DNA from: a virus
Taxonomy: Duplodnaviria > Heunggongvirae > Uroviricota > Caudoviricetes
Length of the DNA: 6,870 bases
IMG/VR virus record: IMGVR_UViG_2681813268_000003
Location: 1-6,870 of that record
Strand: one strand, 5' to 3'
Positions 2,317 to 6,870 of this stretch are shown here, piece after piece. The position numbers and the translations under genes were made by a program. The notes under the pieces were generated by a model. It was not told the DNA's origin. It saw nothing but the letters and a program-made list of their open reading frames with translations, and made no database searches. Positions within the stretch are counted from its first letter, which is position 1, and the number at the start of each line of letters is the position of its first letter.

Positions 2317-3003
2317 ATGACCCCAATAAACATATTTATGACAGTTGCTGATTTCAAACGGCCCAAATTGGAGCTCCCAAACGGGGCAAACAAACTACTA
2401 CTGCACTCTTGCTGTGCTCCATGTTCCGGTGAGGTGATGGAGGCGCTTCAGGCCTCGGGAATCGACTACACCATCTTTTTCTACAACCCGAACATTCATC
2501 CTCAGAAAGAGTATTTAATTCGTAAGGATGAGAATATTCGCTTTGCTGAACAACACGGCGTGCCGTTTATTGATGCTGATTACGACACAGACAACTGGTT
2601 TGAACGAGCCAAAGGAATGGAATGGGAGCCCGAACGAGGGATCCGTTGCACCATGTGTTTTGACATGCGTTTTGAGCGGACAGCGCTGTACGCCGCTGAA
2701 AATGGTTTCAGTGTGATCAGCAGTTCACTGGGCATTTCACGCTGGAAAAATATGCAGCAGGTTAACGACTGTGGGCGGCGAGCCGTCGCGCATTATCCGG
2801 GCATGGTGTACTGGGATTATAACTGGCGCAAGCAGGGCGGCTCGTCCCGTATGATTGAAATCAGCAAGCGCGAAAAATTCTATCAGCAGGAATATTGTGG
2901 CTGTGTGTATTCTCTGCGCGATACCAATCTACACCGCAAATCTCAGGGACGCCCTCTTATCAAAATTGGTCAACTCCACTACGGTAAAGAAGAGAAGGAG
3001 TGA
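2317..3003 (+). CDS. queH: QueH-like protein (DUF208 family, putative B12-independent epoxyqueuosine reductase)
   Basis: 228-aa ORF with N-proximal [11 protein letters not shown] motif and additional conserved Cys (CTMCFD, EYCGCVY), which I recognise as DUF208/QueH hallmarks. No obvious SD; alternative start ATG 2338. Confidence 0.7.
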
Positions 3004-3024: not shown

Positions 3025-3054
3025 TTGATTTCATATTGGCGAGGTAAGTAGAAT
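3025..3054 (+). promoter_or_regulatory. Putative sigma70 promoter of hok/mok mRNA copy 1 (TTGATT -18- TAGAAT)
   Basis: -35-like TTGATT 3025-3030 and -10-like TAGAAT 3049-3054; predicted start near 3060, just before the tac-like element. Confidence 0.4.
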
Positions 3055-3057
3055 GAC

Positions 3058-3072
3058 TGCGGGTGCTTGAGG
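3058..3072 (+). promoter_or_regulatory. tac-like 5' element of hok mRNA copy 1 (TGCGGGTGCTTGAGG), complementary to the fbi-like 3' element at 3443..3458
   Basis: 15 bp pair with 3443-3458 (CCTCAACGCACCCGCA) with one bulged C. Same 5'/3' fold-back architecture as described for plasmid R1 hok mRNA. Copy 2 equivalents at 6400-6414 and 6779-6794. Confidence 0.55.
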
Positions 3073-3104
3073 CTATCTGCTTCAGGCATGAACACCAAAA
3101 GGCA

Positions 3105-3182
3105 GATAGAGAAAAGCCCCAGTTAACATTACGCGTCCGGCAAGACGCTTAACATTAATCTGAGGCCAATTTCATGCTTTGC
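3105..3182 (-). ncRNA. Putative Sok-like antisense RNA of hok locus 1 (extent approximate)
   Basis: Inferred by analogy to hok/sok. Minus strand has -35-like TTGCCT (complement of 3212-3217) and weak -10-like TAACCT (complement of 3189-3194) with 17-nt spacing, pointing transcription antisense across the mok start (3174). 3' end not defined. Confidence 0.25.
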
Positions 3183-3386
3183 ACATGTAGGTTAGCCTCT
3201 TACATGCCGAAAGGCAAGGAGAAGCAGGCTATGAAGCAGCAAAAGGCGATGTTAATCGCCCTGATCGTCATCTGTTTAACCGTCATAGTGACGGCACTGG
3301 TAACGAGGAAAGACCTCTGTGAGGTACGAATCCGAACCGGCCAGACGGAGGTCGCTGTCTTCGTAGACTACGAATCCAGGAAGTAA
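3174..3386 (+). CDS. mok: Mok-like regulatory ORF, in frame with and containing hok (70 aa)
   Basis: ATG 3174, same frame as hok. Same in-frame arrangement as I recall for E. coli MokC/HokC. Confidence 0.5.
   Translation: MLCTCRLASYMPKGKEKQAMKQQKAMLIALIVICLTVIVTALVTRKDLCEVRIRTGQTEVAVFVDYESRK
3231..3386 (+). CDS. hok: Hok/Gef-family type I toxin (51 aa, single TM helix)
   Basis: MKQQKAMLIALIVICLTVIVTALVTRKDLCEVRIRTGQTEVAVFVDYESRK is near-identical to recalled HokD/HokC sequences. SD AAGGAG 3215-3220 before ATG 3231. Confidence 0.9.
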   Translation: MKQQKAMLIALIVICLTVIVTALVTRKDLCEVRIRTGQTEVAVFVDYESRK

Positions 3387-3463
3387 GAGTGACCGGGCGG
3401 GGAGCTGATCCCATCCCCGCCCACCTCTGATGTGTCAGGCATCCTCAACGCACCCGCACTTAA

Positions 3464-3506
3464 CCCGCCCATCGCTGTGATCTCTCAGCGTTTCGGCGGG
3501 TTTTTT
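3464..3506 (+). terminator. Rho-independent terminator / 3' end of hok mRNA copy 1
   Basis: Two-tier hairpin: CCCGCC 3464-3469 pairs GGCGGG 3495-3500; inner CGCTG 3473-3477 pairs CAGCG 3486-3490; followed by T6 3501-3506. Confidence 0.7.
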
Positions 3507-3526
3507 GTTGTTTATTTCCGGTGAAT

Positions 3527-3554
3527 TTGATTCGCGCACCTTCGCAGATAGAAT
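3527..3554 (+). promoter_or_regulatory. Putative sigma70 promoter (TTGATT -16- TAGAAT) upstream of the 95-aa ORF
   Basis: TTGATT 3527-3532 and TAGAAT 3549-3554, located just after the hok1 terminator. Confidence 0.4.
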
Positions 3555-3635
3555 CGACTCACTTAAGTAGCGCGCAGGGAGAAGAGGGATGGACCCCGAA
3601 CAGGGGAGAGCTATTTATCTGGAAGGATTCTGAAG

Positions 3636-3961: not shown

Positions 3962-4178
3962 ATGGCACATATACAACTGGTCAAACAAACCTCTTCCGGA
4001 TTACTTCTCCCGGCGACGCCGGAGAGTTGCGATTTTCTGCATCAAATCAAAATAGGTGAGTGGATACACGCAGACTTTAAGCGTGTGTGTAACTACGCAT
4101 TCCACAAGCGTTTTTTCAAACTCCTGCAACTGGGTTTCGATTACTGGACTCCGGTCGGTGGGGCGATCACGCCTCTGT
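3962..4178 (+). CDS. Phage nin-region protein, 3'-truncated at the N gap (possibly DUF1367-like, tentative)
   Basis: ATG 3962 preceded by GGAGA 3951-3955. Translation MAHIQLVKQTSSGLLLPATPESCDFLHQIKIGEWIHADFKRVCNYAFHKRFFKLLQLGFDYWTPVGG... runs into the N run at 4179. Family assignment is from memory only. Confidence 0.5.
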
Positions 4179-4184
4179 NNNNNN
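4179..4184. other. Run of 6 N: assembly/scaffold gap of unknown true length
   Basis: Literal nnnnnn in the sequence; flanks correspond to positions 1940 and 1942 of the upstream repeat copy. Confidence 0.95.
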
Positions 4185-4412
4185 CGGGTTGACGAAAAAG
4201 AGCGTCAGGTCCGCTGTAAAATCTGCGGTGCGGTTGTGGAGCCGTTTGACTGGATGCTCTCTGTGGCAAAAAGAGAAACCAGACTGGCAGATGATGTAAG
4301 GCTATTGCGCCAGGAGGAACAGGAAAGGCGGAGAAATATAGAAAAGCTGATACAGATTGAGCGTAACGCGAAAGCGCGGATACGCAGGGCGACAAAATCC
4401 AGAACTGAATAA
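4185..4412 (+). CDS. 5'-truncated second copy of the zinc-ribbon/coiled-coil protein (3' 228 nt identical to 1942..2169)
   Basis: Frame-3 translation from the gap edge (RVDEKERQVRCKICGAVVEPFDWML...ATKSRTE) is identical to the C-terminus of the 1813..2169 product. Confidence 0.5.
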   Translation, partial: RVDEKERQVRCKICGAVVEPFDWMLSVAKRETRLADDVRLLRQEEQERRRNIEKLIQIERNAKARIRRATKSRTE

Positions 4413-4498
4413 TTAAATTTAGCACTGTTAAAAATTTAATCCTTAACCGGAGGGATTTCTGCACCCTCAAATCATCAGGAGACCGCCCGAAAGGGCGG
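4185..4498 (+). repeat. Copy B of the 314-bp direct repeat (partner 1942..2255)
   Basis: See copy A. Ends in a GAAA-loop hairpin (4482-4499) that is perfect here but mismatched in copy A. Confidence 0.95.
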
Positions 4499-5752: not shown

Positions 5753-6117
5753 TGATTAATCGAACCAAACTGGAGCACATTCTCGAATATGCCAGGCAGC
5801 AGAAATGTATTGGGCAACTTTGTAAAATTCCACCAGGAGATATGGTTGAAATCGTGGAAATGGCCATGCGTAAGGCTGGCAACTCTCCGGTAGCTCCGGC
5901 TGGCTGGATAAGCTGTAGTGATGCAGTTCCTGCTGAATATTGCGATGTGATTCTTCTCGATGATCTCGGGAATGTATTCCCCGGTTCCTGGGATAAGGTT
6001 TTTTGCCCCACTCGTGGCGGGAATAAGATGGCTTTTGTGGACAAAGACGGCGTTGAAGTAGAGAGCTCAACTCACTGGATGCCGCTACCGGAACCACCGC
6101 AGGAGGTGAATCAATGA
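5752..6117 (+). CDS. DUF551-like phage protein (121 aa)
   Basis: ATG 5752 overlaps previous stop (TAATG). C-terminal ...THWMPLPEPPQE and WISCSDAVPAEY... resemble the DUF551 pattern found in lambdoid nin regions (from memory). Confidence 0.7.
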   Translation: MINRTKLEHILEYARQQKCIGQLCKIPPGDMVEIVEMAMRKAGNSPVAPAGWISCSDAVPAEYCDVILLDDLGNVFPGSWDKVFCPTRGGNKMAFVDKDGVEVESSTHWMPLPEPPQEVNQ

Positions 6118-6197
6118 CCTGGCCTGAGGCATTCACCACGGTAGGAATTGCGATGGCGGTGGCGCTGGTGGTGTATTCGATTTGCCGTTGGGGTTAA
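6114..6197 (+). CDS. Putative 27-aa hydrophobic micropeptide (MTWPEAFTTVGIAMAVALVVYSICRWG)
   Basis: Below the ORF-track length cutoff. ATG 6114 overlaps DUF551 stop (ATGA), strong SD AGGAGG 6101-6106 at 7-nt spacing, stops 7 nt before a strong terminator. Confidence 0.4.
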   Translation: MTWPEAFTTVGIAMAVALVVYSICRWG

Positions 6198-6207
6198 CAA
6201 ACAAAAA

Positions 6208-6233
6208 CCCCGGATTGATGGTCCGGGGTTTTT
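6208..6233 (+). terminator. Rho-independent terminator closing the HNH-containing operon
   Basis: CCCCGGA 6208-6214 pairs TCCGGGG 6222-6228, 7-nt loop, then T5 6229-6233. Confidence 0.75.
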
Positions 6234-6445
6234 GAAGGAAACAAAACAGAAACAGCAATTGCCGTTACCTGTTGTTACCATGGCAAGTAAACGTATCTCA
6301 GGCGAGCGCATTGCGCCGTTCTGACGCAGATAAACTAGCCTGGATAGATGGTGCTGGCAATAAAAAATAGCGTTTTCTTATCGGTGTCGGTAAGATTGCT
6401 GCGGGTGCTTGAGGCTGTCTGCCTCGGGTATGTCACTGTAAGGCA

Positions 6446-6523
6446 GACAGAGAAAAGCCCCAGTTAACATTACGCGTCCTGCAAGACGCTTAACATTAAT
6501 CTGAGGCCCAATCTATGTCTCAC
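6446..6523 (-). ncRNA. Putative Sok-like antisense RNA of hok locus 2 (extent approximate)
   Basis: By analogy only; the same minus-strand hexamers as locus 1 are conserved (complement of AGGCAA and AGGTTA). Confidence 0.2.
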
Positions 6524-6727
6524 AAATGTAGGTTAGCCTCTTACGTGCCGAAAGGCAAGGAGAAGCAGGCTATGAAGCAGCAAAAGGCGATGTTAATCGC
6601 CCTGATCGTCATCTGTTTAACCGTCATTGTGACGGCACTGGTAACGAGGAAAGACCTCTGCGAGGTACGAATCCGAATCGGCCAGACGGAGGTCGCTGTT
6701 TTCGTAGACTACGAATCTAGAGAGTAA
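6515..6727 (+). CDS. mok: Mok-like regulatory ORF, in frame with and containing hok copy 2 (70 aa)
   Basis: ATG 6515, same architecture as locus 1. N-terminus differs (MSHKCRLASYV vs MLCTCRLASYM). Confidence 0.5.
   Translation: MSHKCRLASYVPKGKEKQAMKQQKAMLIALIVICLTVIVTALVTRKDLCEVRIRIGQTEVAVFVDYESRE
6572..6727 (+). CDS. hok: Hok/Gef-family type I toxin, second paralog (51 aa)
   Basis: MKQQKAMLIALIVICLTVIVTALVTRKDLCEVRIRIGQTEVAVFVDYESRE. Differs from copy 1 at T35I and the C-terminal residue. SD AAGGAG before ATG 6572. Confidence 0.9.
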   Translation: MKQQKAMLIALIVICLTVIVTALVTRKDLCEVRIRIGQTEVAVFVDYESRE

Positions 6728-6799
6728 GAGTGACCAGGCGGGAGAGTAATCTCCCGCCACCTTTGATGTGTCAGGCATCCTCAACGCACCCGCACTTAA

Positions 6800-6819
6800 C
6801 CCGTTTCGGCGGTTTTTTT
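6800..6819 (+). terminator. Degenerate terminator of hok copy 2 (T7 tract with minimal stem)
   Basis: Relative to copy 1, about 25 nt of the hairpin are missing; CCG/CGG with a 3-nt loop remains, followed by T7 6813-6819. Confidence 0.3.
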
Positions 6820-6870
6820 GGTAATGACTCCAACTTATTGATAGTGTTTTATGTTCAGATAATGCCCGAT

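What the first reader, a model, noticed from the sequence alone, without database searches (positions are those of the whole stretch)
6776..6826. hok copy 2 has lost most of its terminator hairpin
Relative to copy 1 (CCCGCC...CGCTG...CAGCG...GGCGGG T6), copy 2 reads AACCCGTTTCGGCGG T7: about 25 nt including the inner stem are absent. The hok mRNA 3' end is where processing triggers activation, so this difference could change stability or activation kinetics, or mark copy 2 as decaying.
Basis: seen in the sequence. Interest (0 to 1): 0.4.

Follow-up and report, generated by a model that had tools for sequence, protein, structure and literature searches.

The report
Weakened hok terminator beside an IS1
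The two hok toxin genes do end in different terminator hairpins, but copy 2 has the family's usual small hairpin weakened by two point changes (with an IS1 element directly after it), and copy 1 is the odd one with a rare 23-base insertion; this is ordinary allelic variation in a well-known toxin-antitoxin family.

Summary
The quoted sequences are correct. Copy 1 (3462-3506) has a long two-tier hairpin plus T6. Copy 2 (6798-6819) reads AACCCGTTTCGGCGG plus T7 and folds weakly (-3.8 against -22.8 kcal/mol).

In about 130 related loci and 5,426 complete E. coli genomes, the usual terminator of this prophage hok (hokD/hokW) clade is a compact hairpin, AACCCGC-UUCG-GCGGG-U5-6. It occurs in 3,730 genomes and with 13 different downstream flanks. 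Copy 2 is that hairpin with C->T at 6804 and G->T at 6813, and an intermediate allele exists. Copy 1 carries a 23-nt insertion (3469-3491) found in only 2 complete genomes and one flank context.

IS1-free alleles have the same hairpin, so the weakening came before IS1.

Both copies keep an intact hok/mok, sok, predicted tac/fbi end-pairing and the post-stop hairpin. Phage 933W/Sp5 hokW has no hairpin here at all and is a working toxin-antitoxin. A weak terminator is therefore not evidence of decay. Effects on termination or processing remain untested inferences.

The parts
3061..3506 (+). Copy 1 full-length hok (mok-hok) mRNA, inferred from the 5' tac element to the terminator T-run
   Evidence: Rfam sok/hok 5' region RF01794, 117 bits, 3061-3236. 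The minimum-energy fold pairs the 5' end with the 3' fbi element.
3231..3386 (+). hok copy 1 ORF (51 aa); the overlapping mok ORF is 3174-3386
   Evidence: ORF list; Pfam HOK_GEF, 81 bits.
3112..3182 (-). sok antisense RNA of copy 1, placed by homology
   Evidence: Coordinates projected from the annotated sokW of phage 933W.
3443..3455 (+). fbi element of copy 1, pairing with tac at 3061-3072
   Evidence: 12 base pairs with one bulged C in the predicted fold.
3395..3422 (+). Post-stop hairpin of copy 1 (9-bp stem, 10-nt loop). It corresponds to the terminal stem of the processed R1 hok mRNA.
   Evidence: Fold. In R1, mutations that break this stem abolish the truncated mRNA (PMC9841398).
3462..3506 (+). 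Copy 1 terminator: extended two-tier hairpin plus T6
   Evidence: -22.8 kcal/mol, z = -5.3.
3469..3491 (+). 23-nt lineage-specific insertion in the loop of the family's usual UUCG hairpin. It supplies the 'inner stem' CGCTG/CAGCG. It can equally be placed at 3468-3490.
   Evidence: Absent from 39 canonical loci and from all outgroup hok types. Present in 2 of 5,426 complete E. coli genomes. All 26 IMG/VR occurrences of its core lie in this same context.
6403..6819 (+). Copy 2 full-length hok mRNA (inferred)
   Evidence: RF01794, 118 bits, 6403-6577; end-pairing predicted.
6572..6727 (+). hok copy 2 ORF (51 aa); mok is 6515-6727
   Evidence: Pfam HOK_GEF, 77 bits.
6453..6523 (-). sok antisense RNA of copy 2, placed by homology
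   Evidence: Projected from 933W sokW.
6779..6791 (+). fbi element of copy 2, pairing with tac at 6403-6414
6737..6758 (+). Post-stop hairpin of copy 2 (9-bp stem, GUAA loop)
6800..6819 (+). Copy 2 terminator. It is the usual C(UUCG)G hairpin with C->T at 6804 (loop-closing pair becomes U.G) and G->T at 6813 (outer C-G pair lost), followed by T7 (6813-6819).
   Evidence: Compared with the family consensus. Energies are -11.8 (canonical), -9.2 (C>T only) and -3.8 (copy 2) kcal/mol.
6820..6870 (+). Terminal inverted repeat and first 51 bp of an IS1 element, cut off by the window end
   Evidence: The same junction in L050 leads into a 768-bp element bounded by IS1 inverted repeats. The same end sequence is annotated as an IS1A-family transposase element in L002. 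It matches IS1 copies in thousands of E. coli records.

Best explanation
[quoted passage not shown] They are joined in the window across a scaffold gap and most likely lie in two different lambdoid prophages.

The ancestral terminator of this clade is a compact hairpin, AACCCGC-UUCG-GCGGG followed by U5-6. Copy 2 keeps that architecture and length. It has two substitutions: C6804T turns the loop-closing C-G into U.G, and G6813T removes the outermost C-G pair. Together they lower the predicted stability from about -12 to about -4 kcal/mol. Copy 1 has a rare 23-nt insertion in the tetraloop, which builds a second stem and roughly doubles the stability. Later, an IS1 came to lie directly against copy 2's T-run. 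In the one relative that shows the far side of IS1, about 135 bp of downstream DNA is missing and there is no target-site duplication, so an IS1-associated deletion ended in the T-run.

The mechanism is inferred from the R1 hok model and is not shown here. The terminator sets the 3' end of the inert full-length mRNA, which is locked by tac/fbi end-pairing, and it is the first barrier to 3'-5' exonucleases. Copy 2 should therefore terminate less efficiently, with some read-through into IS1 antisense to its transposase, and/or be trimmed faster to the active form. Copy 1 should be slower. All other regulatory parts are intact, and a relative with no hairpin still works. I therefore expect copy 2 to remain a functional toxin-antitoxin rather than a decaying one.
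For: The canonical UUCG hairpin was found in 39 of the fetched loci with 13 different downstream flanks, including E. albertii. It is also in 3,730 of 5,426 complete E. coli genomes, at 6,639 places.

The copy 2-like 35-mer is in 33 genomes and is exact in 2. The long form is in 2 genomes.

The three states form a series within one flank context (GTTGCGYGCTGAAT...): canonical (for example L006, L011, L072, L077), C>T only (L059, L097), and C>T plus G>T (L001, L053, L054, L062).

In a neighbour-joining tree of the hok bodies, the long form and the copy 2 form are each a tip clade nested among canonical loci. Outgroup hok types have short hairpins with no counterpart of the 23 nt.

IS1-free alleles already carry the copy 2 hairpin. 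IS1 is 768 bp in L050, has no target duplication, and its far side joins about 135 bp further downstream in the IS1-free allele.

The tac/fbi pairing and post-stop hairpins are predicted in both copies. The ORFs and sok region are intact.

933W hokW has no hairpin after fbi, and Sp5 hokW-sokW is an experimentally working toxin-antitoxin (PMC8621323). The R1 model, including the role of the 3' stems against exonucleases, is described in PMC9841398.
Against: No transcript data exist for either copy, so termination efficiency and processing rates are predictions from thermodynamics and from the R1 plasmid system. That system has a different, longer terminator.

Deleting 3468-3490 from the long form would give exactly the 'C>T' intermediate. 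A deletion origin for that sub-lineage therefore cannot be ruled out by sequence alone, and L059 (C>T) sits next to the long-form clade in the tree.

Recombination shuffles terminators between hok bodies: L136 has a copy 2-type body with the long terminator. The tree is therefore only a rough guide.

The canonical hairpin is invariant, so there is no covariation to prove it is under selection.

The far side of IS1 cannot be seen in the window itself.
Confidence: 0.78

Rival explanations
1. One reading: copy 2 descends from a copy 1-like ancestor by deletion of about 23-25 nt that removed the inner stem, and the locus is on its way to inactivation.
For: Removing 3468-3490 from copy 1 yields AACCCGTTTCGGCGGG, exactly the 'C>T' allele one step from copy 2. 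A 2-nt CG microhomology flanks the segment. L059 (C>T) is sister to the long-form clade in the tree.
Against: The long form is rare (2 of 5,426 genomes) and has a single flank context. The short canonical form is present in 3,730 genomes, with 13 flanks, and in E. albertii. The C>T and copy 2 alleles share their downstream flank with canonical alleles, not with the long form. This route needs an insertion followed by an offset deletion, where one transition is enough. Nothing else in copy 2 is degraded.
Confidence: 0.07
2. The difference is functionally neutral. In this prophage clade the hairpin after fbi is dispensable, so neither the weak hairpin of copy 2 nor the strong one of copy 1 changes toxin control in any meaningful way.
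For: The 3' end after fbi is highly variable in the clade. It is canonical, degenerate in K-12-type hokD (L002, L057), or replaced outright in 19 hokW-type loci that run straight into a downstream gene. Sp5 hokW-sokW still works as a toxin-antitoxin (PMC8621323).
Against: The canonical hairpin is kept unchanged in most genomes and across many flank contexts, which suggests some constraint. In R1, stems at the 3' end control mRNA stability against exonucleases (PMC9841398). The hokW experiments used an arabinose-inducible promoter (hokW cloned in pBAD24, hokW-sokW in pBAD18) and did not measure processing kinetics.
Confidence: 0.3
3. The copy 2 form is a sequencing or assembly error in or next to the homopolymer (G/T miscall at 6813, T-run length), or was caused by the IS1 insertion.
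For: The T-run length varies among near-identical contigs: T6 in L050, T7 in the window and L051, T8 in L001. The window is a scaffolded draft with an N-gap.
Against: The same C>T plus G>T hairpin is found in two complete genomes (FDAARGOS_944, VL40) and in several independent contigs, with and without IS1. The hairpin changes lie 7-16 nt inside the junction and are present in IS1-free alleles.
Confidence: 0.03

Closest known systems
hokW/mokW/sokW of Stx phages 933W and Sp5 (VT2-Sakai)
   Same: Both window copies align over the whole locus from tac to fbi (93% and 92% identity to 933W). They share the 51-aa Hok, the mok overlap, the sok position and the lambdoid prophage setting.
   Different: hokW has no hairpin or T-run after fbi; the sequence runs directly into a downstream gene. 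Both window copies have a hairpin plus T-run.
hokD (relF) of the E. coli K-12 Qin prophage and 'Hok/Gef family protein' loci in RefSeq E. coli genomes
   Same: RefSeq annotates the closest matches as HokD or Hok/Gef. The IS1-free copy 2 allele is 99.3-99.8% identical in strain FDAARGOS_944.
   Different: The K-12-type hokD allele examined (L002) has a degenerate hairpin, AACCTGATTCGGCGAG (-2.0 kcal/mol), and an interrupted T-run. Copy 2 is less degenerate.
hok/sok of plasmid R1 (the mechanistic model)
   Same: Same layout: tac/fbi end-pairing, mok-hok coupling, antisense Sok, post-stop hairpin, then fbi and a terminator that is removed by slow 3' processing (PMC9841398; predicted here).
   Different: From my own recollection (not checked here), the R1 terminator is a different, longer hairpin. 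HokW, a relative of the window's Hok proteins, is 44% identical to R1 Hok (PMC8621323). No processing data exist for this clade.
K-12 chromosomal hok loci with IS elements just downstream (gef/hokC with IS186; Pedersen & Gerdes 1999, as summarised in PMC3562002)
   Same: An insertion sequence lies immediately 3' of a hok gene.
   Different: In gef/hokC the IS186 is thought to disrupt fbi and normal processing, and the mRNA ends inside the IS (PMC3562002). Here IS1 lies after fbi, the hairpin and the T-run, so all known elements are left in place.

Membership tests
[quoted passage not shown] | Small hydrophobic Hok/Gef toxin ORF | tested here: met
   Pfam PF01848 HOK_GEF scores 81.1 and 77.3 bits against a cut-off of 22. 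NCBIfam Hok-family hits fall below its curated cut-off.
[quoted passage not shown] | Overlapping upstream mok reading frame ending at the hok stop | tested here: met
   ORFs 3174-3386 and 6515-6727, 70 aa each, share the hok stop codon.
[quoted passage not shown] | Structured 5' leader with the Sok target and sok gene | tested here: met
   Rfam RF01794, full-length matches of 117 and 118 bits against a gathering score of 59. Both copies have the same sok promoter-like hexamers, TTGCCT-17-TAACCT, on the minus strand (read).
[quoted passage not shown] | Long-range pairing of the 5' tac with the 3' fbi in the full-length mRNA | tested here: met
   The minimum-energy folds of both full-length RNAs pair 12 nt of the 5' end with 3443-3455 and 6779-6791. 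This is a prediction only.
[quoted passage not shown] | Slow 3' exonucleolytic processing to a translatable, Sok-binding truncated mRNA; toxicity; antitoxin action | not testable with these tools
   Needs Northern blots, 3' RACE and killing assays. A relative, hokW-sokW, was shown to work (PMC8621323).
Intrinsic (Rho-independent) terminator | G+C-rich stem of at least about 5 pairs immediately before a U-tract | tested here: not met
   This row is for copy 2. Only 4 pairs form, one of them U.G, at -3.8 kcal/mol, which is no better than shuffled sequence. The consensus scan does not list it. The U-tract (T7) is present. Copy 1 has an 8-pair outer stem plus a 5-pair inner stem (-22.8 kcal/mol) and T6, but the simple scan also misses it because of its internal loops.
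IS1 insertion sequence | IS1 terminal inverted repeat; 768-bp element with insA/insB; usually a 9-bp target duplication | tested here: inconclusive
   The end sequence at 6820-6870 matches IS1. The same junction in L050 leads into a 768-bp element with both inverted repeats, and a homologous end is annotated as IS1A in L002. The window stops after 51 bp. L050 shows no target duplication, only a deletion of about 135 bp.

The most novel reading that the evidence does not exclude
The two co-resident prophage hok/sok loci may have been tuned to different activation timers through their terminators. On this reading, the rare 23-nt hairpin extension in copy 1 slows 3' trimming of the inert mRNA. 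The two-substitution weakening in copy 2 speeds trimming or causes read-through, with IS1 abutting the T-run. The cell would then hold a 'slow' and a 'fast' toxin trigger. The recombinant L136, which has a copy 2 body with the long terminator, would show such terminator modules being exchanged between prophages.
Probability: 0.08. Interest if true: 0.35.

Novelty: already known. Interest (0 to 1): 0.1.

Why it matters
It matters little beyond getting the annotation right. hok/sok loci in lambdoid prophages, their variable 3' ends and IS elements next to them are all documented. The main correction is methodological: comparing two paralogues alone gave the wrong direction of change, and a family-wide comparison reversed it. 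A natural series of terminators exists in otherwise near-identical loci: no hairpin, then about -4, -9, -12 and -23 kcal/mol. That series could serve as a ready-made panel for testing how 3' hairpin strength sets hok mRNA maturation rate.

Tried and rejected
- **Automatic alignment.** MAFFT misplaces the indel because IS1 follows copy 2, so I aligned this stretch by hand and against the family.
- **Terminator scan.** The simple consensus scan lists neither hok terminator, so it could not grade them; I used folding energies instead.
- **Source of the 23-nt insertion.** It has no other copy in the fetched loci. All 26 exact matches to its 21-nt core in IMG/VR are the same hok context. No donor sequence was found.
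- **IS1 junction in complete genomes.** Among complete E. coli genomes there is no single-piece match. The only full-coverage hits are 2-piece matches spread over about 576 bp, or the independent hokD-IS1 junction.
- **IS1 as the cause of the hairpin change.** Rejected, because IS1-free alleles have the same hairpin.
- **Sequencing error.** Rejected, because the allele recurs in two complete genomes.
- **NCBIfam.** It gave only sub-threshold Hok-family hits.
- **Literature.** The hokW paper and the 2026 Hok survey preprint say nothing about terminators.

Full report
**What is in the window.** Rfam finds two full-length matches to the sok/hok leader family RF01794, at 3061-3236 and 6403-6577 (117 and 118 bits). 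Each is followed by an intact 51-aa Hok ORF (3231-3386; 6572-6727) with an overlapping 70-aa mok frame. Both Hok proteins pass Pfam HOK_GEF. The two loci are about 91% identical from just upstream of the 5' tac element (3050/6393) to the start of the terminator (3467/6803). Projection from the annotated sokW of phage 933W places sok at 3112-3182 and 6453-6523 on the minus strand.

**Checking the observation.** The quoted strings are correct. Copy 1 has AACCCGCC..CGCTG..CAGCG..GGCGGGTT and T6 at 3462-3506. Copy 2 has AACCCGTTTCGGCGG at 6798-6812 and T7 at 6813-6819. The difference is a 23-nt indel plus one G/T change. Folded alone, the copy 1 3' end gives -22.8 kcal/mol (z = -5.3; none of 200 shuffles as good). 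The copy 2 3' end gives -3.8 kcal/mol (z = +0.1; 96 of 200 shuffles as good). The raw observation therefore holds: the hairpins are different and copy 2's is weak.

**Which copy changed.** I fetched 47 loci from one-genome-per-species bacterial contigs and 80 from viral contigs that encode close Hok relatives. I then read what follows the conserved fbi element in each. The commonest 3' end is a compact hairpin, AACCCGC-TTCG-GCGGG followed by T5-6: a five-pair G+C stem closed on a UUCG tetraloop.
- It occurs in 39 loci with 13 different downstream flanks, including E. albertii.
- A 35-mer spanning it hits 3,730 of 5,426 complete E. coli genomes at 6,639 places.
- The equivalent copy 2 35-mer hits 33 genomes and is exact in 2.
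- The copy 1 long form hits 2 genomes, whichever of its two variants is used as query.
- The long form always has the same downstream flank.
- All 26 exact occurrences of the inserted core in IMG/VR are in that same context.
- More distant hok types in the set have unrelated short hairpins and nothing resembling the 23 nt.
- In a rough neighbour-joining tree of the tac-to-fbi region, the long form and the copy 2 form are each a small tip clade nested among canonical loci.

**What copy 2 actually is.** Set against the canonical hairpin, copy 2 has the same length and two substitutions. C->T at 6804 turns the loop-closing C-G into U.G. G->T at 6813 removes the outermost C-G pair and lengthens the T-run. 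An intermediate with only the C->T change exists (L059, L097). The canonical, intermediate and copy 2 states all occur in the same downstream context, GTTGCGYGCTGAAT.... Predicted stabilities are -11.8, -9.2 and -3.8 kcal/mol. Copy 1 is the canonical hairpin, or its C>T variant, with 23 nt (3469-3491, or equally 3468-3490) inserted in the loop; this insertion provides the 'inner stem'.

One caveat applies. Deleting 3468-3490 from the long form would give exactly the C>T intermediate, and L059 sits beside the long-form clade in the tree. A deletion origin for that sub-lineage is therefore not strictly excluded. It needs two events where one transition is enough, and it does not fit the shared flanks. 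I give it about 7%.

From 6820 to the window end the sequence is the terminal inverted repeat of IS1. The same junction in L050 leads into a 768-bp element bounded by both IS1 inverted repeats. An identical end next to another hokD is annotated as an IS1A-family element. IS1-free alleles of copy 2 (L001 from strain FDAARGOS_944, L053, L054, L062) already have the weakened hairpin followed by T8 and GTTGCG. The hairpin changes therefore came before IS1. In L050 the far side of IS1 joins sequence that lies about 135 bp further downstream in the IS1-free allele, and there is no target-site duplication. This points to an IS1-associated deletion whose endpoint is the T-run. No complete E. coli genome in the collection has this junction.

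**Is copy 2 decaying?** I found no other sign of it. Both full-length RNAs are predicted to pair 12 nt of the 5' end (tac) with fbi: 3061-3072 with 3443-3455, and 6403-6414 with 6779-6791. Both also keep a strong 9-bp hairpin just after the stop codon, at 3395-3422 and 6737-6758. In plasmid R1 the corresponding stem protects the processed, active mRNA, and mutations that break it abolish that species (PMC9841398). The 3' end beyond fbi is highly variable in this clade. In phage 933W hokW there is no hairpin or T-run at all, and the sequence runs into the next gene. The hokW-sokW locus of Sp5 nevertheless behaves as a working type I toxin-antitoxin (PMC8621323).

**How it most likely works.**
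- Shown here: sequence anatomy, population frequencies, predicted folds.
- Inferred from the R1 model (PMC9841398): the terminator fixes the 3' end of an inert full-length mRNA. Slow 3'-5' trimming removes the terminator and fbi. The RNA then refolds and becomes both translatable and a Sok target.
- On that model, copy 2's hairpin should terminate poorly and offer little resistance to exonucleases. I expect some read-through into IS1, antisense to its transposase, and/or faster maturation. Copy 1's hairpin should do the opposite.
- Whether this has any phenotypic effect is unknown. The hokW example makes a neutral outcome quite possible, and I list it as the main rival for the functional part.

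**Comparison with what is known.** These are ordinary members of the prophage hokD/hokW branch of the hok/sok family, and RefSeq annotates the nearest matches as HokD or Hok/Gef. IS elements next to chromosomal hok genes are a known theme. In K-12 gef/hokC, an IS186 downstream is thought to disrupt fbi and normal processing (PMC3562002, citing Pedersen & Gerdes 1999). Here IS1 sits after all known elements.

**Verdict.** Nothing here is new in kind, and interest is low. The interpretation of its origin is wrong.

Noticed in passing
window 4166-4186 (N-run 4180-4185); repeat 1942-2255 = 4185-4498: The window is a scaffold join, not continuous DNA. Complete genomes (L003, L004) are collinear with the window to 4175 and then continue a DUF1367 gene. 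The window instead switches, at a 10-nt shared string ATCACGCCTC, into a second copy of the 3' part of the ORF at 1756-2169 (99.7% identical). In strain FDAARGOS_944 the two hok copies lie about 720 kb apart, so they are probably in two different prophages.
   Followed up: yes
window 6820-6870; L050 1748-2515: An IS1 end abuts the copy 2 T-run. In L050 the element is 768 bp, lacks a target-site duplication, and about 135 bp of the IS1-free allele (L001 about 3440-3573) is missing, which suggests an IS1-mediated adjacent deletion ending in the terminator T-run.
   Followed up: yes
L002 3380-3440 (E. coli 2018-11-3CC, hokD of a Qin-like prophage): A second, independent IS1 end lies directly after a different, degenerate hokD terminator (...GAGTTTATTTTATC|GGTAATGAC). 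The T-rich 3' ends of hok loci may be recurrent IS1 targets.
   Followed up: partly
L136 about 60-775 (IMGVR_UViG_2695420579_000006): This is a recombinant allele. The hok body is 99.4% identical to copy 2 (window 6114-6803), but it is followed by the copy 1-type long terminator and copy 1-type flank. Terminators appear to be swapped between prophage hok loci by recombination in the conserved fbi region.
   Followed up: partly
L130 780-860 (phage 933W hokW): The experimentally studied hokW type has no hairpin or T-run after fbi, and the next gene (L0136, YgiW/YdeI-like) starts about 60 nt later. It is unclear where hokW mRNA ends.
   Followed up: partly
window 3395-3422 vs 6737-6758: The post-stop hairpins of the two copies differ in stem sequence but both keep 9 pairs (GGGCGGGGA/UCCCCGCCC against GGCGGGAGA/UCUCCCGCC). 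Their loops differ in size (10 nt against GUAA). This is consistent with selection on the stem that would cap the processed mRNA.
   Followed up: no
window 6380-6402 vs 3025-3060: The copy 1 hok promoter matches TTGATT-18-TAGAAT in the consensus scan. Copy 2 has TAAGAT as its -10 and no recognisable -35, and the scan does not list it. Copy 2 may be transcribed more weakly.
   Followed up: no
window about 166-217: A run of GAGGAA/GAAGAG hexamer repeats near the window start would encode a poly-Glu stretch in the ORF at 63-434. It was not examined.
   Followed up: no
window 2317-3003: A 228-aa ORF with Cys-rich motifs (HSCCAPCS, CxxC) sits between the phage replication-region genes and hok copy 1. 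From memory it resembles the DUF208/QueH family; this was not tested.
   Followed up: no
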